Assembly (NCBI RefSeq): GCF_028641065.1 | Contig: NC_073381.1 | Location: 16,058,001-16,122,000 of the forward strand | From: Leucoraja erinacea | Lineage: Eukaryota | Length of the DNA stretch: 64,000 nucleotides | Direction: 5' to 3' | In this document: piece by piece, positions 39,004 through 50,494 of the stretch | How positions within the stretch are numbered: the stretch's first letter is position 1 | Layout of the letters: the number at the start of each line of letters is the position of its first letter | Program-made: the position numbers and the translations under genes | The notes under the pieces: generated by a model | Database searches by the model: none | Told to the model about the DNA's origin: nothing | What the model saw: the letters and a program-made list of their open reading frames with translations, nothing else

Positions 39004-42000
39004 TCTCCTCGCAAGCATAAATAGGAAAACAAAAACTTTTCCTTTGTTGTGACATAGGGAATCCAACATGCTTCTTAGTAGGTACACAAAAATGCTGGAG
39101 AAACTCAGCGGGTGCAGCAGCATCTATGGAGCGAAGGAAATAGGCAACGTTTCGGGCCAAAACCCTTCTTCAGACTAATGGGGGGTGGCGAGGAGAATGC
39201 TTCTTTGTAGATTCTTTCTGACTAGACTTAACCCCTGGAGTAGTAATCAATTCCACCAGCTTTGCAAGTGAAGCTACAACTGTTTACAAACACTGTTATA
39301 TATTAAAACTAAAGTTGCTGTGACTAATTTTCTTTTTCTTCATGTTCCCTTCCATGACTTAGTTCTTCTTGGGAAATCAGGTACAGAACAACATAAATGT
39401 CTGATGTATTTTACCTGTTGTGTTGTGTGCTGTGGGACAGTAACTGCTGCTTTGTGGCGTTCAGCCTCTAAACCAATTGGGGACAGCGGCTTTTCCAACC
39501 TGTTGCCCAGCAGTTTACGTTTTTCAATGTTGGGTGTTTCCACTGTCATTATGCTATGGGTTTGTGCTGCTCATTTATCATTTAATCATTCGCCTCTTCA
39601 AATCGGCTGCTTTAAAGCGAGGTGGGGGTGGAGACATAGAGCTTGCAACTGCAAAAATAAATGCTTGATGCAAAGCCAATCATTACAGTCTGCAAGAGAA
39701 AATCACGAGCAAGATTGTTTGTTAACACCCACAAGTATAAAGTGCTGTTTACATTTCTCGTGTTTTCCTCCCTTGTAGTTTGGCGACTCCCAGCAGTTGC
39801 GGTTAGTCCGCATCCTACGCAGTACAGTGATGGTTCGTGTTGGCGGAGGGTGGATGGCCTTGGATGAGTTTTTGGTGAAAAATGACCCCTGCAGAGGTAG
39901 GTTTTGGTTGGTTCGACCAGCCACCTGCTTGGGCAGCACAAGCTCGCCCTTGTGGTCTAATGTAGAGCCTCTTCATAAGAAGGCACATTCATGTCTGTAC
40001 AAAATGATGATGGATTATTTCTCGATAGAGGTACAAGCAGGCAGCAGTGCATTGAAATGATTGGCATCAATGAGTTGGAGCGATGTATAGTGTCGGCAAC
40101 TCCCGACAGGATGTATCCCTGCAGATTTCAACTCGTGGTCCACTCGTCTCACTCCCAAAGCTTAACCATTGATTACCCAGTGTGTTACATTGTCATGGAA
40201 CAACACATTCTCTAGCTGAAGCAAACAGATTCCTGCTTCCCCCATTGAATGATACATGGCTCTCGGGCAAATTGACAGTTTTCCTATCTCGTTCGTTTTT
40301 CAAATTTAAACAATCAAAGAAAAAAAAGGGTGCAGTGTGGCGTCAGCCTAAACACGGGCCACTCATGCTCGAACCCTCGTCAGGAGATACGAGGGCGGGC
40401 GCGTGACGTCATGGGCTAGGGGGAGTGTAAGGGGAAGGCTAGGGCTAGGGGGAATCTGAATCTGAGTGTCCTGGTACTTAAGGTTATCTCACCTTGAGGA
40501 GTCAACCTGTAGCTGAGCCCGAGAGAACAACCTCGCTCAGCTACAGCAACAACGTAATATAGTTAGCGCACCAACCTAACGTGCCACCACTGAATAAACG
40601 ACTCCTTGAACCGGCCTGACGTCTCCCCTTTATTCACCACGTTTGGTGCCGCTACAGCAGCATATTACTTTTTAGGCCTTGCAGTCTTGTTCTTCCAGCA
40701 ATTCTGTGGAGATTCTGCAATTCGGTCTCATTTTCAAGAGACGATGTGTGAAAATAAATCATAGTCAACAAAGGATCTTTCATGGGGATTGTATCTGTGT
40801 GAAATGCATTAAGGTATTAGCGGATCCTACCGTTGCGATTTAACAACCGATCAACATCGTAAATCTAAGCTCTGGTACGCAGAATGTCCACCTGCATAAA
40901 ATTGAGAATTAATTACCGTAGTTATAAGCAGATATAAAGCAATAATACTCATGTTGTTTTATTAGCAAAAATTAGAGCTTTGATCGGACATATGACATGA
41001 GTAAGTAAGTAAGTTTATTGGCCAAGTCTTCACATACAATGAATTTGCCTTGGTGCTCCGCCCACAAGTAACAACATGACAATGAGCGTGAAATATTTAT
41101 AGTTTAGATGTTTTGAGAAATTCATATTAGTTCTTCAAATGATTTATCTGTTTTATCTGCTCTGTGCTTGGTCCTATTTCCTACTAAAAGTTTCTCCTCT
41201 TTTTCTATTAATGTGTTGCAATCCCTTTATCATTTCTTCCAGTTCATCATCATGGAAGTAAAATGTTGCATTCGGAATCAAACTCTTCAATTACCAGTCA
41301 GTCTCCTATAGGTTGGCAAACCTCCTGTCTCTTTTCCTTCACCATTGTGCTTTCCTACTCTGTATGGCTTAACCCTCCTCGTGGCTTCCAGCAGGCTTTG
41401 TGCTTTTTTAATTAAAAAAAAGAGAACTGTAATCCAGTGCGCTTTGTTTCTTTTAACCAACTACAAAATGATCACCCACTTTGAAATGCATGTGAAGTTG
41501 CTTATATGACTTTTTTCTTTTACCCGCAGTAATACTCACTGCAAGTAAGTGGTCACCTTGTCTGATATTGTAGCATCCTCCCAAGTGGAATGTATACATC
41601 TGTTCTGCCTGAAAGTGGTGTGCTGTTTTAAGCTTCTGCACAAATATTTTTGGAATGGGGGTTTGCTTTAGTGGGTCCCTGGCCTTCTTTTAAACTGGCT
41701 GCATGAGGTTAATAGACTCCGAACTCTTGCGTAGTTTTTAACATGAAACTGAACTGAAACCTTTAGTACTATCAACATTTTTTTTTTTTTTTTTATCCCC
41801 TTCCATTTAAGTTTTGAAAATTTGCTGGGCTAATTCATCTCGTGTTGCATACGTACACCAGCCTAATTGTTGAGTTGCTGGTATGGATAGGCTTTCAATT
41901 CAGATTTCAGTATTATTCCATCATCTGCTGACTATTTTTTTTAACCGTCCTGTTCATTAACCCCCCCCCCACGACCCCCTTCATACTTTCTCTTGCCATT

Positions 42001-45000
42001 GCAAGTATGCCTTCTGCTTGTGAAGTTGTGGATGATTTACAGCTGATTTTTTTTTTTTTTTTTTTTTCTTCTTCATTCCTTTCTTTCAGCCAAGGGCAGA
42101 ACAAACGTCGAGTTGCGTGAGAAGTTCATTCTTCCCGAAGGCATGAGTCAATCCATGGCTGCCTTCCGGACACGAGGGCGAAGGTCACGGCCGTCATCAA
42201 GGGCAGCTTCACCCAACAGATCAGCATCCAGTGCCAGCCAAAGTGTTTCAGTCCCACCAGTTGTTACAAGTACTCCTCCTAAGGTAGTGTTGAGCGGCAC
42301 AGTTCAATCCTCAGTGTTTCCTGCGATTGATAATGTTACCAATGTAGCTTAGAATGGCGCTGCTCTAACCCAGCAACCAGCTCATTGCTATTGTTCCTAT
42401 TCAGCAGCCTAATGATAGTGCAGTGCCTATCTCCCTAATGTATTGATAATTCATTGCATTTGTATAATACTGTCTTAGCCACTTTAATATTTATTTCAGG
42501 TTTGTTGCTTCAGTTTTTGTGTGAGGTTGGTTATGGAGTATTGACAAAGTGTTTAAGAAGGAACTGCAGACGGTGGAAAATCAAAGGTACACAAAGATGC
42601 TGGAGAAACTCAGCGGGTGCAGCAGCATCTATGGAGCGAAGGAAATAGGCAACGTTTCGGCACGAAACGTTGCCTATTTCCTTCGCTCCATAGATGCTGC
42701 TGCACCCGCTGAGTTTCTCTAGCATCTTTGTGTACCATGGAGTATTGACAAGTGTGCATTTAATATAACACATCACGGGAAGATTAACGCATGCCAGACA
42801 TAGATTGCTTACTAACTTGTAAGGGATTCACATTGTCTTGATCATTGCATTTTTAATTTTACTTTGACCTTATTACACTTCCTTTTCCATGGCATTGTTA
42901 TTTCCTGGTCATATTACTTTATTGTTTCAATTTCCATTCATTTTCAATGTATCCTTGTTTCATACAGACACCCCAACATTTAATCCGCAATTATGATAAA
43001 CCATGGTTGACAAACAGCAAAACATCAAGTGCTTATAAATCACCAGAGTCCCCAGAAGGTCGGGTCCCATCTCCAGAGGTATAGTACGGTGAAGTACTCC
43101 CAGCTTAAGAGACGAGTGTTGGTAGTGGTCAACATATCAAAAGTGCATTTCGTTTATAGACTGGTTAGCTGTCTTGGATAGGTCTTTATTAAAAAGTTTA
43201 TTGTTCAGAAAATTCTCCCAGGGGAAAATTTACCTTCTCCCAAGGAAGAATTTTGGGCTGCTTTTCAGGATTCCGAATGCATTTGTCCCTGTTGTACACA
43301 ATAAATTGAAATTGGAAAATTGAATCACATTTGGAAGTAGTGAATACTAAATACTCTCCTGAATCATTCACAAATTTCTTGTTTCATCTTTTAGAATAAA
43401 AGGGATAAAATTGGTGATCAGAGGCACTTGTACTTTAGTGACAAATCACTGAGATGCCACAATCTTCTATTTTTAGAGATTTGTTGTTGGGAATGTTTTA
43501 AATTGCCCAATTCATTGATCAAAGTTACCAAATAGTTCACTTTATGAACACTTCTTTCGTGCAGTAGGGTGTTTGTTTATTTAACTACTTCAATCTGTAA
43601 ATGAAATTGACTTTTATTACCTATCAGTAATTTGCACAACTCATTGTCTAATAATAGGAGCTGTCAGCATTCCAAAGTCCAAGATCCAGAATATTTAACA
43701 CTGAATCCTGAAAAAGAGCCACTTAATATTTATCTGTAACACTAGAGAGGCTTCCCCCCCCCCCCTCCCAAATCCCTCCAACCCACACTTAATATATCCT
43801 GACCTCTAGAAGCTAACATTCATTTATCTTTCCAGACTATCTCTCTTTTCTAAGATTTTCAGTCTTGCAAAACTAACTCCTCTGTTCATGTCATCCTGTT
43901 TCACTGCACAGATGGAAGGAATCTTGTGACTGTGTTGTTCTTTCCTTTTTTTTTCCATATCTTAAAATCTTCTTCTCCTGTCACCTTGTGCATGATTGAG
44001 TAGTTTCTGTGCATGTAATTCCACGCTGGGTCATGGTACCAGGTTGGTTTCTGAGATCACAGGTTTTGATTATTTTTCTTCTTGGAACTTCTTCTAAAGA
44101 AAAAACTTTATTCTGCTTTGAATACGTGGGGTAAGGATGTAGATTTCTTTAAGTGTTTTTGTAATGCTATGCCACAGTTTTAGAGCCAGCGAAGAAATTG
44201 GCATTAATCCGTTTTGCATTGCGTTAAGCCATATTTTAAAAAAAGGTTGCATTTACTTTGTATCATTGAAGGCATCAAGTGTTTTACAGCCACTGGTTGA
44301 AGTGCTGTTGTCAAGTAGGATACTTGGAGCTAGATTGTAATTATGGCTTCAGAAATATGATGTTGGATCATTGAAGATCAATCGTGATCAAGTAAACCAT
44401 TAACAATTACAGCACTGAAACAGTTGAAAGTGCTGTTGTCAAGTAGCCTGCATACTAACCCTGGAGCTAGATTGTTAATTATGGCTTCAGAAAGCTATTC
44501 CATGCTACCATCTGGATGATCAATCGTGCATCGTTAATATTGAATTGAATGGCTGTGCTAGCTCAAAGGGCCGAATGGCCTACTCCTCCACCTATTTGCT
44601 ATGTTGATTCAGCCTGATTATCTGTTCCTATTACTCTGCAGTATAAATATTGGCAAAGCCACTGTTGATAACACCCTTCCTTTGAAATCATGGCTGCGAA
44701 CTATTTTTCACTTCTCTCTGATGGAACCAAGTCCTGACATAATGTCTTGTGAGAAGGCTTCCAACTCTGACAGGCAACACTTCCTCAGCACTATTGTAAT
44801 CACCCAGATCTTTGCCCAAGTGTGTACAGTGGGACCTGAACCAGCAATCATTTTCCCCAGTGGGGGAGAGTGAGCTTTTTCTAATCTTAACCAAAGTCAC
44901 CACCATAGATCAAGGAAACACCACATGATTCACCTGTACAGTGCATTCAGAAAGAATTCAGACCCCTTCACTTTTTCCACATTTAGCTTATTCTAAAATG

Positions 45001-48000
45001 GATTAAATTCTTTTTTTTTATCATCAATCCACACACAAGTTTTTTGCAAAGCAATTAAAAAGAAATAATTGAAATATCACATTTACATAAGTATTCAGAC
45101 CCTTTACTCAGTACTTTGGTAAGGCACCTTTAGCATCGATTACAGCCTCAAGTCTTCTTGGGCATGACGCTACAAGCTTGGCACACCTGTATTTGGGTCA
45201 TTTCTCCTATTCGTCTCTGCTGATCTTCTCAAGCTCTGTCAGATTTGATGGGGGAGCGTCTATGCACAATTATTTTCAGGTCCCTCCAGAGATGTTTGAT
45301 CAGGTTCAAGTCTGTCTCTGGCTGGGCCAATCAAGGACATTCACAGCCAATTAAACTACAAACCTTTGGAATGTGGGAGCAAACCGGAGCACGTGGCGAA
45401 AACCCAGGCGGTCCCAGGATGAACATACAAACTCCGTACAGACAACACCCGCAGTCAGGATTGAACCCGGGTCTCTGGCGCTGTAAGGCAGCAACTTTAC
45501 CACTACGCCACTGTGCCAGGGGGTCGGGTTCTGACCACCTTGGCTGTATGTTACAGTCCCAGCAACCGATGGCTTTGCTCAGGTACACCCATGGAGTGTG
45601 CTGAAGGATTCTGTGAAACTGACTGAAAATAATAATTCTTTTAGAATGACAGTGATGGAATTTGAGCTTACTAAAACGTGGGGCACCTCTGCCAATTTAG
45701 ATTGCTCCTATAGAGGTTGGGCAAGAAGGAGCTGGGTCTGATGTGCCTTTGTCATGTCCAAACCAAGTGCCCTGGCTGACTTGGCCATGAAATCTTCACA
45801 CGAGTTTAGCACAAATCTGTCACAATTGTGTGGATTGACAGTTAACACAGTTAACGAATAACTACATTATCAAGGTCAGGAGTAACGTATCTGCGAGACA
45901 TAGGTTAGCATATTACCTTCATTAAAATAGCAGTAGCAAACCTGAGGAGTTTCATGTTGCCATTATCTTATAATTGCTGCTTAACTGAATTCAGTTCCCC
46001 TTCTAGATGTGATCTTTAATATCAGCCTCTGGATTAGCTTTTCAGTAACTTCGCTCCTACGCTCCCAATCCTGAAAACGTACAAAACGTTAAGGGCAACA
46101 TAATAATTGAAGCAAAGACGCGTATTAATTTGAAACATAATGAAGGTTGTAATTTGTTGCACGCAACAAAAGCTTTTCACCGGACCTGGTACACGTGACA
46201 ATAAACTAAACTAATCTCCGAATCTGAAACAAAACATGTGAAATGTGCAGAGATAGTTGCACAAAGGGAACGCAAAATTGTTTCTTGCATGTACAGTAAG
46301 CTGTGAATGTGTGTGACAGTGTCGGGGTGCTTGTGCTCACACCGAGATGTCTATTGAGCTCATATTGCCATTGTGAACTATGGTGGATGCGTTCCCATGT
46401 CGGTTAAGCCGTGTTGGTTTTATGTTTCTCAATACATGTGGTTAGCTAACATCTATTAATCATTTTTTTTTTGGTAGAATTTAAGCCTCTATCTCATTTA
46501 TTTCGTGTGGGAGAGTGTTACACATTTCCACTATCATTTATGTAAAGTAGTATTTCCTGGTCTCACTCTGTTTTGAAGAGAATGCTCCCTTGTTCCCATC
46601 AGCAGATAAAAAAAGATTTTTATCAAATACTGCAAGAAGCAAGAAACAAACAAACAGCAAAGAGCGTGAGAATATACAATGAGCTTCATCTGTGGTGCAG
46701 GATCTCTGATTTCCATCCTCCTCAGACACACTCATATTACAGTTGTAGAAGTACGCAGCTATGTTCTCCTGGAGTAGCTTCGTATGGGTGTCGTTAAATT
46801 ATTGATTGTTAATTATCCAGCTGTAAATGTTAATCCTTTGATACTGTGCAGCTGAGAGATGCTCTGAAAAACCTTGAAGCTGGGAATAGGATGGCTTTGT
46901 AGAATGATCAACATTTGAAGAAGTCCTGTCTAGATTTTATCTACCTATCACCAGTAATTAAATATTAACCCAGTTCTCTATGTAATAATCTAGGTAACTC
47001 CCATCCAGGGAAGCAAGTTGCGGCCACCCGGATATCTCTCTGGGAAGAGTTTCCATTCTGGAGATGACAGCAATGTAACATCAACTCCTCCTTCTAGGGG
47101 GAGGTCTCGAGTACCAGGTCAGTGTTCTATGGTGACTGTAATCTCGCTGCTTTCCGTACTTTAAGACCCTGAAGCTTGATCAAGGTTTGTATCAAGGAAA
47201 TAGGATAGATTTTTTTTTTTTTAAGTCTCCCAGGCTTCCTACAGCTGACGGCCATTGTAAAATATACGTGGTTCAGAACAGGATGGTGTCCAGCTAAAAT
47301 AAAAACTCAGTGTTGGAAGTACTAAAGAAGTCGGGCAACATTTGTGAGAGAGAAACAGACTTTTCAGTGATGACCTATCACTACAATGGGTTGCGAGCAA
47401 ATTCAGAAGCCGGAAAGATTGGGAGGTGCGGAAGGAACACAAGGGAAGAGAGATGAGTGAGATTAAATGGTAAAGGAGATAACTGATCGCAGTGAGATAT
47501 GGGCCTGCCCATTGCCCAGTATTGAATCACTGGCCGACTGCAGTGCATGCATGGCAGCCCGTTACATGCGTCCTGCACCTGCGCAGCAAAGTTTGGCCAT
47601 TCACTTGGCCCCCTGCACTCTCCGTAGGGACATTTAGTAAGTGACTGAGCCTAGGAAGTGGACACACTCTCTGCCTGGCAGCTCCCACCACTGCAGCCCT
47701 GTTCATAGAAACATAGAAAATAGGTGCAGGAGTAGGCCCTTCGAGCCTGCACCGCCATTCAATATGATCATGGCTGATCATCCAACTCAGTATCCTGTAC
47801 CTGCCTTCTCTCCATACCCCCTGATCCCTTTAGCCACAAGGGCCACATCTAACTCCCTCTTAAATATAGCCAATGAACTGGCCTCGACTACGTTCTGTGG
47901 CAGAGAGTTGCAGAGATTCACCAATCTCTGTGTGAAAAATGTTTTTCTCATCTCGATCCTAAAAGATTTCCCCCTTATCCTTAAACTGTGACCCCCCAAC

Positions 48001-50494
48001 TTGTTCTGTACTTCCCCAACATCGGGAACAATCTTCTAAATTCTAGCGAGTACAAACCGAGTCTTCAAAGTTCCTTTGAAGCTTCATTTAATTGGCTTTT
48101 TTTTTTTTAAATCTCCACATTTCTGTTTCTATCTAATTATTAAGTTCTTATTTTTATTTGATTTCAATTTAAATTGTTTGCCTTGTCATCGATTGTTTGC
48201 CGATGATCTCTGAGCATCACAGAAATGTAGAGAAAATTGAGTGTTGGATTTGAGAACTAGAGGTCATTGGGAAATAAATGAAGTCAATGCAAACAATTTA
48301 TATGTAAAATCAAATAAGAATAATAACTTAATCATTTGCTGGATACAGAAATGTGGAGAACATATTTAGTTTTGGAATTGAGCATCAGAGATCATTGGGA
48401 AGAACTGCATCGGCCTTCTGGATGCTTGGAACCTCTGGACGGCTGTGATGTGGTTGCCAGATGTGTTCCATCAGGCTTTGCACAACCCCTACTCTATTGG
48501 GGTCCATGTTAGGGGCTGACACAAAGTATGGGTCTGGTCTAATATTGTGAAACAAAAGTGATCGGTAATTGGACAGGCAGTTATATAAATGGGCATAGCA
48601 GAATCACAGTGAACAGCTGTTGTTTGAAATAAATTAGAATGGTAGCTATGAGCTACTATTGATGAATTGTGAGTCTGGGAGATGTCATTGTAAATTTTCA
48701 TCAAGCTCTTGTTGAACTTTCTAAGGAGGCAAGGGACAAAGAAATCACACTGGGAGTGAAAGGTGACCAGAGCAAGGAGGAGCAATGGGACCCCTAATGG
48801 GAAGCGTGGGTAGGGATGGGAATGATAAATGGGATCGAATATGTTCAGGGGCCCTGATATCACTCATAGAGGGGAGCCATTGTTCAGTAAAAATAAACAT
48901 AATATGGGGAAAAATGGAACAGAATCCTTAACCAGAACATGGTCAAGATGTCTGTGGGATTTATTTATTTTCTAGAGAGTTAAAGGTTCAAGAGTTCTAG
49001 AGAGTTAAAGAGTAAAAGAACTGGGGCGTTAAAATATGGGCCTTAGAAAGTGAGCAAAGGACTGCGATGCAAAGCTACTAAAAGTTTGAACATTAGCAGG
49101 AGACAGTATAGGTATAATCATTTATGTGTTGGAAAGGGGACTATAGAAGAGCACCTAAACAGTTCTTGAATAAAGGAGGTCTGAAGAATGGTCCTGATAC
49201 GAAACATCACACATCCTTTTCCCCCAGAGATGCTGTGTGACCCGCTGAGTCACTTCAGCAATTTGTGTCTATCTTGAATAAATAATGTTCACATAGCCAG
49301 GATGCCCCTTCACCTGTGCAAAACCTGCAGAGAGGTGTTCAGTGTAAGGGCAAGTTTGAAATGGATGAGGATTGATTAGACCATGATTTAATTTCGTTTT
49401 AAATGGAGGGGTCTGTTCTGGTGGAGAATGGAACTGATAGGGTTTTGGAAGTCCTCAGTGAAAAGCAGACTCTGAGGAACAGGGATTTGGAACTGCTGTA
49501 TGGGGGATGGGGGGGGGGGGGGGTGGGGGAGGGGGTGGGGGGGGGGAGTGGTGAAGGGGGGGGGGGGGGGGGGGGTTACTCTCCTGAGCTGTTGCCTGAA
49601 ACTAGGTATGTTTAACTATATCTCTTGCGTCACTGAATATAAAAAATAACTAAAAAAACAAATAAATAAAACCTTAAAGATAAATAAATAAATAGATGGA
49701 TACGTGAGTAAATAAATAGACAGATAAATAGATAAATGAATCAATCAATAAATGGATGGATAAATAAATAGATGGGCAGATAAATAAATAAATAAATAAA
49801 TAGATAAATAAATAGATGGATAAGTGAGTGAGTGAATTATGCAATTGTGTTTATGTAGTTGTCCTTAGTCATTTGATTGTACGATACGATATGATAGAAT
49901 AGAACTTTGTTTATCCCAGGAGGGAAATTGATCTGCCAACGATCATTAAACACAAGATACCTGAAACATGAAATTAAAGTGACGAATGGAAAGGATTGGG
50001 GATGTCAGGGGTGGGGGGGGAGAGGAGAGTCAGTCTACCCCACGACAGAAGGGGGAGAAGTTATACAGTTTGATAGCCACCTGGAAGAAGGATCTCCTGT
50101 GGCATCCTGTACAGCATCTTGGTGAAACCAGCTTGTGGGATGTGAGATGTAATCTGCATTTCATGTCGTAAACAATGGTTTAACTCATTTAACCTACGAT
50201 CTATGTGTATTCAATCCAGCCTTAGAGTCAAGAAAAGTCCCAAGCCGTCCCACAAGCCGCGCGGGAAGCAAGACTGGCAGCAGAGCAAGCAGTCGCCGGG
50301 GGAGTGATGCTTCCGATTTTGACATTTCAGATATCCAGTCTGTGTGCTCGGATGTTTCGGAGGCAGTGCCTGAAACTAGCAGATCAGGGTCACGAGCAGG
50401 ATCTCGGCCATCTTCAGCGAAAGCATCGAAAATCCCGACACCATCAAGGAGGTCTCCAGCAACTAGCAAACTGAGTGCAACCTCCAAAAGATAG
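2089..50494 (+). CDS. DST: Dystonin (BPAG1, spectraplakin), 3' part of a multi-exon gene; 5' part lies upstream of the window
   Basis: Spliced translation gives spectrin repeats, EF-hands ([26 protein letters not shown]), GAR domain ([27 protein letters not shown]) and GSR tail. Residues such as [38 protein letters not shown] and the ..SKR* end match DST as I recall it rather than MACF1. All exon phases are consistent. Confidence 0.95.
2620..4325 (-). mobile_element. CR1-clade LINE, 5'-truncated, frameshifted ORF2 (RT)
   Basis: ORFs with [48 protein letters not shown] region; internal deletion near 2890; microsatellite tail. Confidence 0.93.
5588..5749 (+). CDS. DST: DST exon ([11 protein letters not shown]...KLTERK)
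   Basis: cag|GAG...AAG|gtgcca, 162 nt. Confidence 0.92.
6108..6420 (-). mobile_element. Rex1/Babar-like LINE 3' fragment
   Basis: (caagtt)n tail, tttattgtca...aatgaaattctt terminal motif, reverse-strand [15 protein letters not shown]-type C-terminus. Confidence 0.75.
7131..7286 (+). CDS. DST: DST exon ([10 protein letters not shown]...FQIDEHK)
   Basis: cag|GTT...AAG|gtaaat, 156 nt. Confidence 0.95.
7390..7596 (+). CDS. DST: DST exon ([11 protein letters not shown]...ARKRAKQ)
   Basis: tag|GTT...CAG|gtatgg, 207 nt, after a 103-nt intron. Confidence 0.95.
7845..8995 (-). mobile_element. CR1-clade LINE 3' part (RT C-terminus and 3'UTR)
   Basis: [38 protein letters not shown] motifs; (ccatataa)n tail. 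Confidence 0.93.
9275..9548 (-). mobile_element. HE1-like tRNA-derived SINE
   Basis: tRNA-like head ggtggcacagcggtagagttgctgc, central V-like domain, LINE-like tail gggcctgtttc...ctaaactaaa. Confidence 0.85.
9847..10280 (-). mobile_element. Rex1/Babar-like LINE 3' end
   Basis: QRVV..AER..G...[18 protein letters not shown]...[13 protein letters not shown] peptide; (agtca)n tail. Confidence 0.85.
10587..10706 (+). CDS. DST: DST exon ([16 protein letters not shown]...QLANHK)
   Basis: tag|TTC...AAG|gtgatg, 120 nt. Confidence 0.95.
11345..11792 (-). mobile_element. L1/Tx1-like LINE 3' end
   Basis: A-rich tail (tttatt on +); reverse-strand [22 protein letters not shown] resembles an L1 ORF2 C-terminus; related tail at 13520-13800. 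Confidence 0.55.
11848..12017 (+). CDS. DST: DST exon ([10 protein letters not shown]...GKSVER)
   Basis: cag|GAG...AG|gtaaag, 170 nt, ends phase 2. Confidence 0.95.
13152..13462 (+). mobile_element. HE1-like SINE with a small pLTR-derived insertion (13345-13378)
   Basis: A-box ggtggcacagtagtag, B-box ggttcgatcc, tail gggccgaagggcc...ctaaactaaa; insertion flanked by gtagaactagtgt duplication. Confidence 0.85.
13825..14028 (+). mobile_element. CR1 3' tail, (ttctatgt)n subfamily; near-identical copies at 14866-15073(-), 21766-22016(+), 23262-23550(+), 35913-36160(+), 47704-48062(-), 60798-61034(+)
   Basis: gaggccagttcattggctatatttaagagggagttagatg...ctactcctgcacc repeated almost verbatim. Confidence 0.88.
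15085..15370 (-). mobile_element. HE1-like SINE
   Basis: Reverse complement of the same head, V-domain and tail. Confidence 0.82.
18232..18391 (+). CDS. DST: DST exon ([14 protein letters not shown]...LIDAHK)
   Basis: cag|A CAG...AAG|gtattg, 160 nt. Confidence 0.95.
18959..19153 (+). CDS. DST: DST exon ([10 protein letters not shown]...LEQALKQ)
   Basis: cag|GTC...CAG|gtaaga, 195 nt. Confidence 0.95.
19241..20128 (-). mobile_element. GC-rich non-autonomous element with Rex1-type 3' end (copy 1), nested in a HER1-like tail
   Basis: (agagtc)n tail; shares hairpins and sub-repeats with 24644-25480 and 34215-34905; internal (CAG)n at 19755-19808. Confidence 0.75.
21049..21177 (+). CDS. DST: DST exon (AEEFHSAVH...LINQHK)
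   Basis: cag|GCT...AAG|gttgga, 129 nt. Confidence 0.95.
22575..22890 (-). mobile_element. Degenerate Rex1-like LINE 3' ORF fragment
   Basis: [22 protein letters not shown]...HCLGKA..I...FHP.HSL type peptide. Confidence 0.7.
22972..23115 (+). CDS. DST: DST exon (EFVKKLEEK...QARFEE)
   Basis: aag|GAG...GAG|gtaact, 144 nt. Confidence 0.94.
23880..24390 (-). mobile_element. Degenerate RTE-clade LINE fragment
   Basis: Resembles an RTE RT segment on the reverse strand; no intact ORF. Confidence 0.4.
24450..24638 (+). CDS. DST: DST exon (VTAWSKQHQ...LIAEHQ)
   Basis: cag|GTA...CAG|gtaatc, 189 nt. Confidence 0.94.
24644..25480 (-). mobile_element. GC-rich non-autonomous Rex1-tailed element (copy 2)
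   Basis: (caata)n tail begins at +6 of the exon 24450-24638 donor; same internal blocks as copy 1. Confidence 0.75.
26151..26277 (+). CDS. DST: DST exon ([15 protein letters not shown]...EKGRS)
   Basis: cag|ACG...TCA A|gtgagt, 127 nt, ends phase 1. Confidence 0.94.
26543..26980 (+). mobile_element. HE1-like SINE interrupted by a short LINE tail (26718-26855)
   Basis: ggcggcacggtggcgtagcggtagag A-box, ggttcgatcc B-box. Confidence 0.85.
28091..28140. repeat. (GT)n microsatellite
   Basis: Directly visible from 28111, preceded by TA-rich sequence. Confidence 0.9.
28287..28447 (+). CDS. DST: DST exon (RKRLPT...ETKNPR...LDRLEE)
   Basis: tag|GG...GAG|gtgagc, 161 nt. Confidence 0.94.
29558..29720 (+). 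CDS. DST: DST exon, EF-hand 1 (LREFANFDF...[20 protein letters not shown])
   Basis: cag|CTG...TCA A|gtgagt, 163 nt. Confidence 0.96.
29776..30220 (-). mobile_element. Bipartite RTE-derived non-autonomous element (5'UTR fused to 3' end)
   Basis: Reverse strand begins with an RTE-type 5'UTR (ccttctcgtggtcggggagcttgtgcgtctcagtgacccctagagctatg) and ends with [21 protein letters not shown] plus (taag)n tail. Confidence 0.7.
31660..31965 (+). mobile_element. HE1-like SINE, near full length
   Basis: A/B boxes, V-domain, ctaaactaaacta tail. Confidence 0.88.
32343..32497 (+). CDS. DST: DST exon, EF-hand 2 (KFPTSRLEM...[13 protein letters not shown]...KIEDE)
   Basis: cag|AG...GAG|gtatac, 155 nt. Confidence 0.96.
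32754..32828 (+). CDS. DST: DST exon, GAR domain N-part ([25 protein letters not shown])
   Basis: tag|GTG...AGG|gtgagt, 75 nt. Confidence 0.96.
34215..34905 (-). mobile_element. GC-rich non-autonomous Rex1-tailed element (copy 3), 5' end cut by a CR1 tail at 34910-35067
   Basis: (aatcag)n tail, ccaccacagtga...cactgtgatgg hairpin, poly-C segment as in copies 1 and 2. Confidence 0.65.
36315..36850 (-). mobile_element. CR1 LINE 3' end
   Basis: [24 protein letters not shown]...FFSQRVV..WNSLPQ ORF and 3'UTR. Confidence 0.9.
37188..38446. mobile_element. Non-autonomous Tc1/mariner-superfamily (pogo/Tc2-like) DNA transposon
   Basis: TA|CTGTATTTCCCGGCAATGAAGACGC ... GCATCTTCATGACCGGGAAATATGG|TA imperfect TIRs with TA TSD. 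Confidence 0.75.
39080..39190 (-). mobile_element. Penelope pLTR-derived repeat with intact minimal hammerhead core (39143-39176)
   Basis: Reverse strand AGT CTGAAGA A GGGTT TT GGCCC GAAAC GTT GCC. Confidence 0.75.
39363..39380 (+). CDS. DST: DST 18-nt microexon FFLGNQ within the GAR domain
   Basis: ACTAAT at 39323, pyrimidine tract, tag|TTC TTC TTG GGA AAT CAG|gtacag; matches the FFLGNQ insert of vertebrate DST/MACF1. Confidence 0.9.
39779..39896 (+). CDS. DST: DST exon, GAR domain C-part ([11 protein letters not shown]...KNDPCR)
   Basis: tag|TTT...AGA G|gtaggt, 118 nt. Confidence 0.96.
40336..40656 (+). mobile_element. Solo LTR (Gypsy-like), 321 bp
   Basis: TGTGGCG...CGCTACA termini, 4-bp TSD GCAG (40332-35 and 40657-60), AATAAA at 40593, TGACGTCA at 40404. 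Confidence 0.8.
41243..41311 (+). CDS. DST: DST cassette exon ([23 protein letters not shown])
   Basis: cag|TT...ATA G|gttggc, 69 nt, phase 1/1; resembles the mammalian DST insert [17 protein letters not shown]. Confidence 0.88.
   Translation, partial: FIIMEVKCCIRNQTLQLPVSLL
42090..42283 (+). CDS. DST: DST exon ([13 protein letters not shown]...TSTPPK)
   Basis: cag|CC...AAG|gtagtg, 194 nt. Confidence 0.95.
42548..42736. mobile_element. Penelope pLTR-derived hairpin insertion with 15-bp TSD
   Basis: TSD atggagtattgacaa at 42533-47 and 42737-51; 74-bp inverted arms. Confidence 0.85.
42968..43078 (+). CDS. DST: DST cassette exon ([18 protein letters not shown]...VPSPE)
   Basis: cag|ACA...GAG|gtatag, 111 nt, phase 0/0; [12 protein letters not shown] motif recalled from DST long isoforms. 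Confidence 0.88.
44939..45346 (-). mobile_element. Tc1-like (IR/DR type) transposon end with transposase C-terminus
   Basis: TA|CAGTGCATTCAGAAAG..TTCAGACCCC TIR, inner DR aagtattcagaccc at ~45089; reverse-strand VNVLDWPSQ...[20 protein letters not shown]...[19 protein letters not shown]. Confidence 0.88.
45346..45517 (-). mobile_element. HE1-like SINE 5' part
   Basis: tRNA-like head and V-domain on reverse strand. Confidence 0.82.
46994..47117 (+). CDS. DST: DST penultimate exon ([23 protein letters not shown]...RVP)
   Basis: tag|GTA...CCA G|gtcagt, 124 nt. Confidence 0.93.
49660..49830. repeat. (TAAA)/(TAGA) compound tetranucleotide repeat; poly-G tract upstream at 49502-49575
   Basis: Directly visible. 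Confidence 0.9.
50220..50494 (+). CDS. DST: DST last coding exon: GSR repeats, SKIP EB1-binding motif, stop
   Basis: cag|CC TTA GAG TCA AGA AAA...[23 protein letters not shown]...ASKIPTP...TSKR TAG; alternative in-frame acceptor at 50226. Confidence 0.94.

What the first reader, a model, noticed from the sequence alone, without database searches (positions are those of the whole stretch)
43912..43928. Candidate unannotated DST exon giving MEGIL-stop by two routes (tail-less isoform or poison exon)
Seen: in a TE-free intron stretch there is a strong acceptor (ACTAAC at 43872, pyrimidine tract, TGCACAG ending at 43911), followed in the correct phase 0 by ATG GAA GGA ATC TTG TGA. If a 14-nt microexon is spliced at TT|gtgact onto the next exon (46994, GTAACT), it reads TT+G TAA, again MEGIL*. 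A stronger donor GG|gtaagg lies at 44130/44131, and two TGCATG (RBFOX) motifs lie at 43989 and 44010. Known: UGC next to the 3' splice site and downstream UGCAUG typify neural/muscle microexons, and the GSR and SxIP tail mediates microtubule bundling and EB1 tip tracking. Inference: a regulated switch that removes the tail or triggers NMD, since the stop is >55 nt upstream of the last junction.
Basis: partly seen in the sequence, partly recalled or inferred. Interest (0 to 1): 0.7.

Follow-up and report, generated by a model that had tools for sequence, protein, structure and literature searches.

The report
Possible truncating exon in skate dystonin
An intron near the end of a skate's dystonin gene holds a splice-acceptor-like site followed by five codons and a stop, which is possibly a rarely used exon that would cut off the protein's microtubule-binding tail or send the RNA to decay, but no RNA read spliced to it was seen.

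Summary
The emphasis is overstated. The acceptor is middling (22nd percentile of 46 real DST acceptors; 592 of 9165 intronic AGs score as high). The 14-nt donor scores below all 46 real donors. The 'two routes' match largely follows from donor consensus plus a next exon starting GTAA (51 of 603 decoys share it). Against use: the only DST junction listed in 4 RNA runs skips the site (8 reads); 85 of 85 cartilaginous-fish DST proteins keep the full tail; mouse and zebrafish microexon tables list nothing there; MACF1 lacks it. For use: one bulk RNA run has about 13 reads over 43874-44290, the deepest unique intronic patch, running past the 44130 donor. A bird-like DST locus has a look-alike branch point, tract and AG followed by exactly 14 nt and GTAAGA (local-alignment tail about 0.5%, not significant globally). 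Junction power was low (about 1 read expected). Verdict: unproven minor truncating or poison exon (0.42); chance pseudo-exon 0.35; QKI/RBFOX enhancer of exon beta 0.2.

The parts
42090..42283 (+). DST exon after the GAR domain (KGRTN..TPPK), upstream donor in phase 0
   Evidence: spliced match to DST protein P0303
42968..43078 (+). 111-nt alternative exon, equivalent of exon beta of mouse Dst/Macf1
   Evidence: present in 75 of 85 cartilaginous-fish proteins; PMC4171495 section 5
43872..43877 (+). ACTAAC: branch-point consensus and also the QKI core motif
   Evidence: 6 of 592 decoy acceptors have it; QKI motif per PMC12064062 passages
43878..43911 (+). pyrimidine tract and AG of the candidate acceptor; two exact blocks of 9 and 8 nt shared with the bird-like locus L030:11895-11917
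43912..43929 (+). five codons MEGIL and TGA in phase 0; 43912-43925 is the proposed 14-nt microexon with a very weak donor
43989..44015 (+). two TGCATG (RBFOX) motifs 21 nt apart; the second overlaps a donor-like site at 44014/44015
44012..44136 (+). donor-like sites after 44014 (6.3 bits), 44042 (7.0), 44062 (5.7) and 44130 (5.9); every one would keep the stop inside the exon
43874..44290 (.). patch of RNA-seq coverage, depth 3.9/6.4/4.2 (about 13 reads) in run X24; strand unknown
46994..47117 (+). next exon (VTPIQ..), starts GTAACT, weak acceptor (11th percentile)
   Evidence: junction 43078>46994 in 8 reads
50220..50494 (+). last coding exon with GSR repeats and the SKIP (SxIP) motif

Best explanation
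The site is possibly a real but rarely used alternative 3' splice site in the DST intron after exon beta, whose use would add MEGIL and a stop. Shown: the motifs, the phase, the stop, and a small patch of RNA over and beyond it. Inferred: the spliceosome takes the ACTAAC branch point and the AG at 43911 in a minority of transcripts, perhaps helped by RBFOX on the two downstream UGCAUG. The exon then most likely runs past the weak 14-nt donor, either to a donor at 44014-44130 or unspliced to about 44300-44400. If it is spliced on to 46994, the stop is more than 55 nt before the last junction and the RNA is predicted to go to NMD, a down-tuning poison exon. A stable protein without the GSR/SxIP tail would need its own polyadenylation site, and only variant hexamers lie there (AAGAAA 44097 and 44192, AGTAAA 44391). 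Of the 0.42, about 0.28 is the longer exon and 0.14 the 14-nt route.
For: Canonical ACTAAC at branch distance, 6 of 592 decoys; the only decoy with 2 TGCATG within 150 nt, 1 of 592. X24 depth 3.9/6.4/4.2 over 43874-44290, against 0-0.6 in the two bins upstream, 0 in five other unique bins and 0.3-2.9 in the other unique intronic bins; the patch begins in the bin holding the acceptor. The bird-like locus L030 has, 1.16 kb below exon beta, CTAAT, tract and AG (11919), then 14 nt and GTAAGA. It is the only one of 49 acceptor-like bird AGs with a GTRAG within 30 nt. Local alignment of the 50 nt upstream: 3-4 of 602 skate decoys and 0 of 46 bird decoys reach the score, which lies between the controls alpha/beta (27-42) and constitutive exons (11-21). 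Exact-block chain for the pre-specified window: 0-4 of 1719 tiles and 0 of 590 AG-anchored tiles at k=7-8.
Against: The only DST joint listed is the skipping one, 43078>46994 (8 reads, 6 starts); none at 43912, 43925 or 44130 reached 3 reads. X1 contigs cover the next exon but not the patch. 85 of 85 cartilaginous-fish DST proteins end in SKR, including 12 of 12 Rhinoraja isoforms; 0 of 353 proteins end in MEGxx. Mouse (289 samples) and zebrafish brain (23 samples) microexon tables list only the 18-nt GAR microexon in this part of Dst. Skate MACF1 has no counterpart. The bird similarity fails Smith-Waterman against shuffles (24-340 of 500, best hit elsewhere), global alignment (124 of 602) and k=6 chains (179 of 1719). 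Its parameters were chosen after I saw the match, its third block (ATGGAAGG) lies 50 nt outside the bird 14-mer, and the peptides differ. No frameshifted isoform was among 8 hits to the bird alternative frame. One or more fragments cross upstream of the AG (depth 0.6).
Confidence: 0.42

Rival explanations
1. Chance pseudo-exon: an ordinary intronic AG with a branch-like hexamer; the RNA patch is unspliced pre-mRNA, possibly captured through A-rich stretches.
For: Acceptor-like AGs occur at 4 per kb, about two dozen scoring higher in this intron alone. Early stops (141 of 603) and the two-route property (51 of 603) are common. Two neighbouring AGs at 43836 and 43863 score higher, and 43836 also gives 5 codons and a stop. 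Other intronic bins also carry 1-3x coverage; A runs lie at 44100 and 44238. No junction, protein or catalogue support.
Against: The conjunction of exact ACTAAC, the single RBFOX pair, the deepest unique intronic RNA patch and the best skate-bird block chain of the whole intron (4 of 104 control chunks as high) at one pre-specified spot.
Confidence: 0.35
2. Not an exon but a distal intronic splicing enhancer: QKI (ACUAAC) and RBFOX (2x UGCAUG) bound 0.8-0.9 kb below exon beta would promote beta inclusion.
For: QKI and RBFOX2 promote inclusion from downstream introns through ACUAA(C) and (U)GCAUG (PMC12064062 passages). Beta is alternative (75 of 85 proteins). TGCATG occurs 3, 3 and 2 times in the post-beta intron of skate DST, skate MACF1 and the 1.3 kb of bird intron held, against 0.4-0.5 per kb background.
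Against: The enrichment is about two-fold on small counts. The bird motifs are not at the look-alike site. No strong RNA bridge to the beta donor was found; the best arm pair nearby is 18 nt (43256-43273/43703-43720), of the size chance gives. It does not explain the RNA patch.
Confidence: 0.2
3. Independent transcript: the ATG starts a separate unit, or the patch is an antisense or non-coding RNA.
For: The library looks unstranded, so the strand of the patch is unknown.
Against: The ORF is five codons; Rfam gives only a chance-level hit (17.8 bits against a gathering score of 100, E 0.86).
Confidence: 0.03

Closest known systems
C-tail cassette exons alpha and beta of mouse Dst/Macf1 (Poliakova et al. 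2014, PMC4171495; abstract, passages, sections 5 and 6 read)
   Same: [quoted passage not shown]
   Different: Alpha and beta keep the frame, are in both paralogues, and all four variants still bundle microtubules and bind EB1/EB3. The candidate carries a stop, is absent from skate MACF1 and has no transcript support.
Poison (NMD-coupled) cassette exons (class recalled; no paper on DST found)
   Same: In-frame stop more than 55 nt before the last junction under any of the donors; intronic location; regulatory motifs beside it.
   Different: Typical ones show strong conservation and junction reads on NMD block; here conservation is borderline and no junction was seen.
RBFOX/QKI-regulated striated-muscle microexons such as the 33-nt Snap23 exon (PMC12064062, passages read) and SRRM4-type neural microexons (recalled)
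   Same: Weak donor, downstream UGCAUG motifs, UGC near the AG.
   Different: Those are mostly frame-preserving. This one would be 14 nt, its donor scores like a random GT, and it is not in mouse or zebrafish catalogues (PMC7821500 supplements).
18-nt FFLGNQ GAR microexon (window 39363-39380) and 15-nt VILTA microexon (41530-41544) of the same gene
   Same: Microexons of DST's 3' end, used here as internal positive controls.
   Different: Both keep the frame and appear in protein models; VILTA scores 10.8/9.4 for acceptor/donor against 5.6/-1.5 for the candidate.

Membership tests
Poison / NMD-coupled exon | In-frame stop more than 50-55 nt upstream of the last exon junction | tested here: met
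   120 nt (14-nt route) and 325 nt (219-nt route)
Poison / NMD-coupled exon | Junction reads show inclusion | tested here: inconclusive
   None listed at 3 or more reads in 4 runs; about 1 expected (8 skipping reads times a depth ratio near 5/36); a junction from 42283 lay outside the laid stretch
Poison / NMD-coupled exon | Inclusion rises on NMD inhibition | not testable with these tools
   No such data could be laid
Poison / NMD-coupled exon | Cross-species conservation of the exon and flanks | tested here: inconclusive
   One bird-like locus: local tail about 0.5%, global not significant; none in skate MACF1; no shark or ray DNA available
Neural/muscle microexon (3-27/30 nt) | Usable donor 30 nt or less after the acceptor | tested here: not met
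   CTT|GTGACT scores -1.5 bits, below 46 of 46 real donors and below the weak alpha donor (1.6); PWM is rough, 46 sites
Neural/muscle microexon (3-27/30 nt) | UGC near the 3' splice site and downstream UGCAUG | tested here: met
   TGC at -7; TGCATG at +78 and +99; TGC alone does not discriminate (20 of 46 real, 175 of 592 decoys)
Neural/muscle microexon (3-27/30 nt) | Frame-preserving length | tested here: not met
   14 nt
Neural/muscle microexon (3-27/30 nt) | Present in vertebrate microexon catalogues | tested here: not met
   PMC7821500 supplementary tables for mouse and zebrafish list only the 18-nt GAR microexon in this part of Dst
Alternative last exon giving a tail-less DST | Own polyadenylation signal and 3' end | tested here: inconclusive
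   No AATAAA or ATTAAA between 43929 and 45002; variants at 44097, 44192, 44391; no pile of read ends listed for X24
Alternative last exon giving a tail-less DST | Protein models ending at the new exon | tested here: not met
   0 of 85 cartilaginous-fish DST proteins; the search favoured full-tail forms and listed the best 120 of 3397

The most novel reading that the evidence does not exclude
An ancient 14-nt frame-shifting microexon of DST, kept from skate to bird in length and position but not in peptide, switches off the GSR/SxIP tail. In cartilaginous fish it would stop at once because the next exon starts GTAA. In the bird it would shift the frame into a 123-residue tail with no GSR repeats or SKIP motif that ends in the last exon and so would escape NMD (assuming L030 and L029 are parts of one gene). 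That would give a spectraplakin that binds microtubules through GAR but cannot bundle them or track EB1.
Probability: 0.13. Interest if true: 0.62.

Novelty: new member of a known kind. Interest (0 to 1): 0.3.

Why it matters
All described C-tail variants of DST and MACF1 keep the bundling and EB1-binding tail (PMC4171495). A natural exon that removes the tail or sends the RNA to decay would be a new control point for dystonin dose or for plus-end tracking in neurons and muscle, the tissues hit in dystonin disease (recalled). As it stands it is a cheap RT-PCR target, not a finding. If it is chance, nothing follows.

Tried and rejected
Run search: no RNA holder listed on record as RNA; no evidence either way. 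Of 24 runs listed I laid 4, on 43040-47200 only, so a junction from 42283 could only have shown as a loose end, and 576 loose ends were not displayed. The tool also drops reads resembling human DNA, which may thin the junction reads. X21 (related species; next-exon depth about 2) and X3 (no coverage of the next exon) are uninformative. Protein searches: (84 hits of 250 candidates; 18 of 21, all genomic read-through ORFs or a beta fragment; best 120 of 3397), cluster look-ups: no MEGxx end. HMMER with the bird alternative frame: 8 hits, 6 genomic read-through ORFs, 1 normal transcript read in the wrong frame, 1 unrelated. The Atlas gave no answer. DST loci in genome contigs and viral contigs: none; metagenome contigs gave 3, of which only L030 covers the relevant intron, and only its first 1.3 kb; the middle of the bird intron is missing. 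Paralogue test with MACF1: nothing at the site. Rfam: chance-level hit only. Paper searches: dystonin+microexon 2 papers (PMC11285346 passages concern Dst-b, not this site); dystonin+NMD+poison exon 0; macf1+microexon+dst 1 unrelated; macf1+rbfox2+exon+ugcaug 0; two searches gave nothing on this site (listings only, apart from PMC12064062). In PMC7821500 one supplementary table was too large to read and one store did not answer, and the tables are filtered high-confidence lists, so a rare or NMD-degraded exon could be missed. Rejected: 'strong acceptor'; 'two routes' as independent evidence; the leading ATG as meaningful (11 of 603 decoys, irrelevant for an internal exon).

Full report
Context. 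The window is the 3' end of dystonin (DST) in a skate; the closest named protein among five tested is the Leucoraja erinacea model P0303 (1116 of 1164 aligned residues). A spliced comparison with P0303 fixes the last exons at 42090-42283, 42968-43078, 46994-47117 and 50220 onward. The 111-nt exon corresponds to exon beta of Poliakova et al. 2014 (PMC4171495; abstract, passages and sections 5-6 read). That paper describes two in-frame cassette exons between GAR and the GSR repeats, and all four variants still bundle microtubules and bind EB1/EB3. The candidate lies 834 nt below beta.

Observation. Every motif is present at the stated place (the stop ends at 43929). The stretch is single copy. 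I scored it with weight matrices built from 46 real DST introns of this genome, a rough model. The acceptor gets 5.6 bits: 22nd percentile of real acceptors, and 592 of 9165 intronic AGs are as good. The 14-nt donor gets -1.5, lower than all 46 real donors and typical of a random GT. The 44130 donor gets 5.9, and two nearer ones (44014, 44042) score higher. The gene's own VILTA microexon scores 10.8 and 9.4. The 'same peptide by two routes' is mostly built in: 25 of 46 real donors read as a stop at +2..+4, and the next exon begins GTAA, so any phase-2 exon followed by such a GT gives the same ending both ways; 51 of 603 decoys do so within 30 nt. What is uncommon is the exact ACTAAC at branch distance (6 of 592) together with the only close TGCATG pair in 264 kb (about one pair expected).

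RNA. Four runs were laid on 43040-47200. The only DST junction listed is beta to 46994, skipping the site (8 reads, 6 starts, run X24, about 5 in 100 of the run read). No junction at 43912, 43925 or 44130 reached the listing threshold of 3 reads. X24 does show depth 3.9, 6.4 and 4.2 over 43874-44290 (about 13 reads), against 0 and 0.6 in the two bins before, 0 in five other unique bins and 0.3-2.9 elsewhere in the intron; the next exon is at about 36. At that ratio about one junction read is expected, so the blank decides nothing. The patch is far longer than 14 nt and continues past 44130, which fits an unspliced or terminal extension, or plain pre-mRNA, better than either proposed cassette. 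The library appears unstranded. X1 contigs hold the next exon but not the patch; X21 and X3 are too thin to tell.

Proteins and catalogues. None of 353 fetched DST/MACF1 proteins ends in MEGxx; 85 of 85 cartilaginous-fish proteins with a GAR domain end in SKR, including 12 of 12 isoforms listed for the skate Rhinoraja. Two limits apply: the search ranked full-tail forms first (best 120 of 3397), and NMD targets are usually not given protein records (recalled). In the MicroExonator tables (PMC7821500; passages and searched rows of supplements seen) mouse (289 samples) and zebrafish brain (23) list only the 18-nt GAR microexon in this part of Dst. Skate MACF1 shares alpha and beta but nothing at this site.

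Bird-like locus. A metagenome-collection record pair (L030, L029) encodes a DST whose tail resembles the bird proteins fetched. 1.16 kb below beta it reads CTAAT, a tract, AG, 14 nt, GTAAGA, the only one of 49 acceptor-like AGs in 7.4 kb of bird intron with a GTRAG within 30 nt. It shares exact 9- and 8-nt blocks with the skate tract, and an 8-nt block matching the skate exon start lies 50 nt further on. For the pre-specified 80 nt, 0-4 of 1719 tiles reach it at k=7-8 but 179 at k=6. AG-anchored local alignment is reached by 3-4 of 602 skate decoys, between alternative-exon controls and constitutive ones, while global alignment is unremarkable (124 of 602) and plain Smith-Waterman finds better hits elsewhere. 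I chose these tests after seeing the match, and the peptides are unrelated. This is a lead, not proof. If the bird 14-mer were spliced, the frame would run 123 residues to a stop in the last exon; an HMMER search with that frame found no such isoform among 8 hits.

Mechanism and odds. Most likely (0.42) a minor truncating exon: branch point and AG used in a few transcripts, possibly RBFOX-assisted, ending at a downstream donor (NMD predicted; stop 120-325 nt before the last junction) or running on unspliced. A stable tail-less protein needs a polyadenylation site that is only weakly indicated. Chance pseudo-exon with pre-mRNA reads: 0.35. QKI/RBFOX enhancer for beta without an exon: 0.2 (motif logic from PMC12064062 passages; TGCATG 3, 3 and 2 in the three post-beta introns). 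Only motifs, phase, stop and coverage are shown; use, regulation and outcome are inferred.

Novelty. If real it is a new poison or truncating exon, a known kind, in a region already known to be alternatively spliced. Interest 0.3; the skate-to-bird frame-shifting microexon reading has probability about 0.13 and would merit about 0.6.

Noticed in passing
window 41530-41544: 15-nt microexon encoding VILTA with strong sites (10.8/9.4 bits); the insert is in 18 of 85 cartilaginous-fish DST proteins.
   Followed up: partly
window 39363-39380: 18-nt FFLGNQ microexon inside the GAR region; the mouse Dst equivalent is classed 'Muscular' in PMC7821500's table.
   Followed up: partly
window 41243-41322; L030:9160-9239; G000:C26 near 17288921: Exon alpha ends at a weak donor (1.6 bits) whose first 11 intronic bases are identical in skate and bird and which reads IGWQ in skate MACF1 too; three teleost models (P0284, P0286, P0293) extend alpha through it by 15 residues.
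   Followed up: no
window 43079-43500: Read-through of the beta donor stops after one codon in skate and two in the bird, and X24 covers this stretch at about 2x. Two mammal-like MACF1 proteins end shortly after beta (P0173, spliced upstream; P0043). Retention after beta may be a simpler route to a tail-less spectraplakin.
   Followed up: no
window 46992-46999; MACF1 locus G000:C26 near 17299270: The exon after beta starts with a donor-like GT(A/G)ACT directly after its AG in both skate paralogues (an AG|GT site); cartilaginous fish have V here, most bony vertebrates G, S or T. Its acceptor is weak (11th percentile).
   Followed up: no
window 43812-43863: Two more acceptor-like AGs (first bases 43836 and 43863, both 7.7 bits) just upstream, the first with its own CTAAC; 43836 would give TISLF and a stop.
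   Followed up: partly
window 44300-44530: Local duplication with 128-142 nt spacing next to a high-copy repeat.
   Followed up: no
L029, L030, L028: Vertebrate (bird-like and fish-like) genomic DNA sits in the metagenome contig collection.
   Followed up: no
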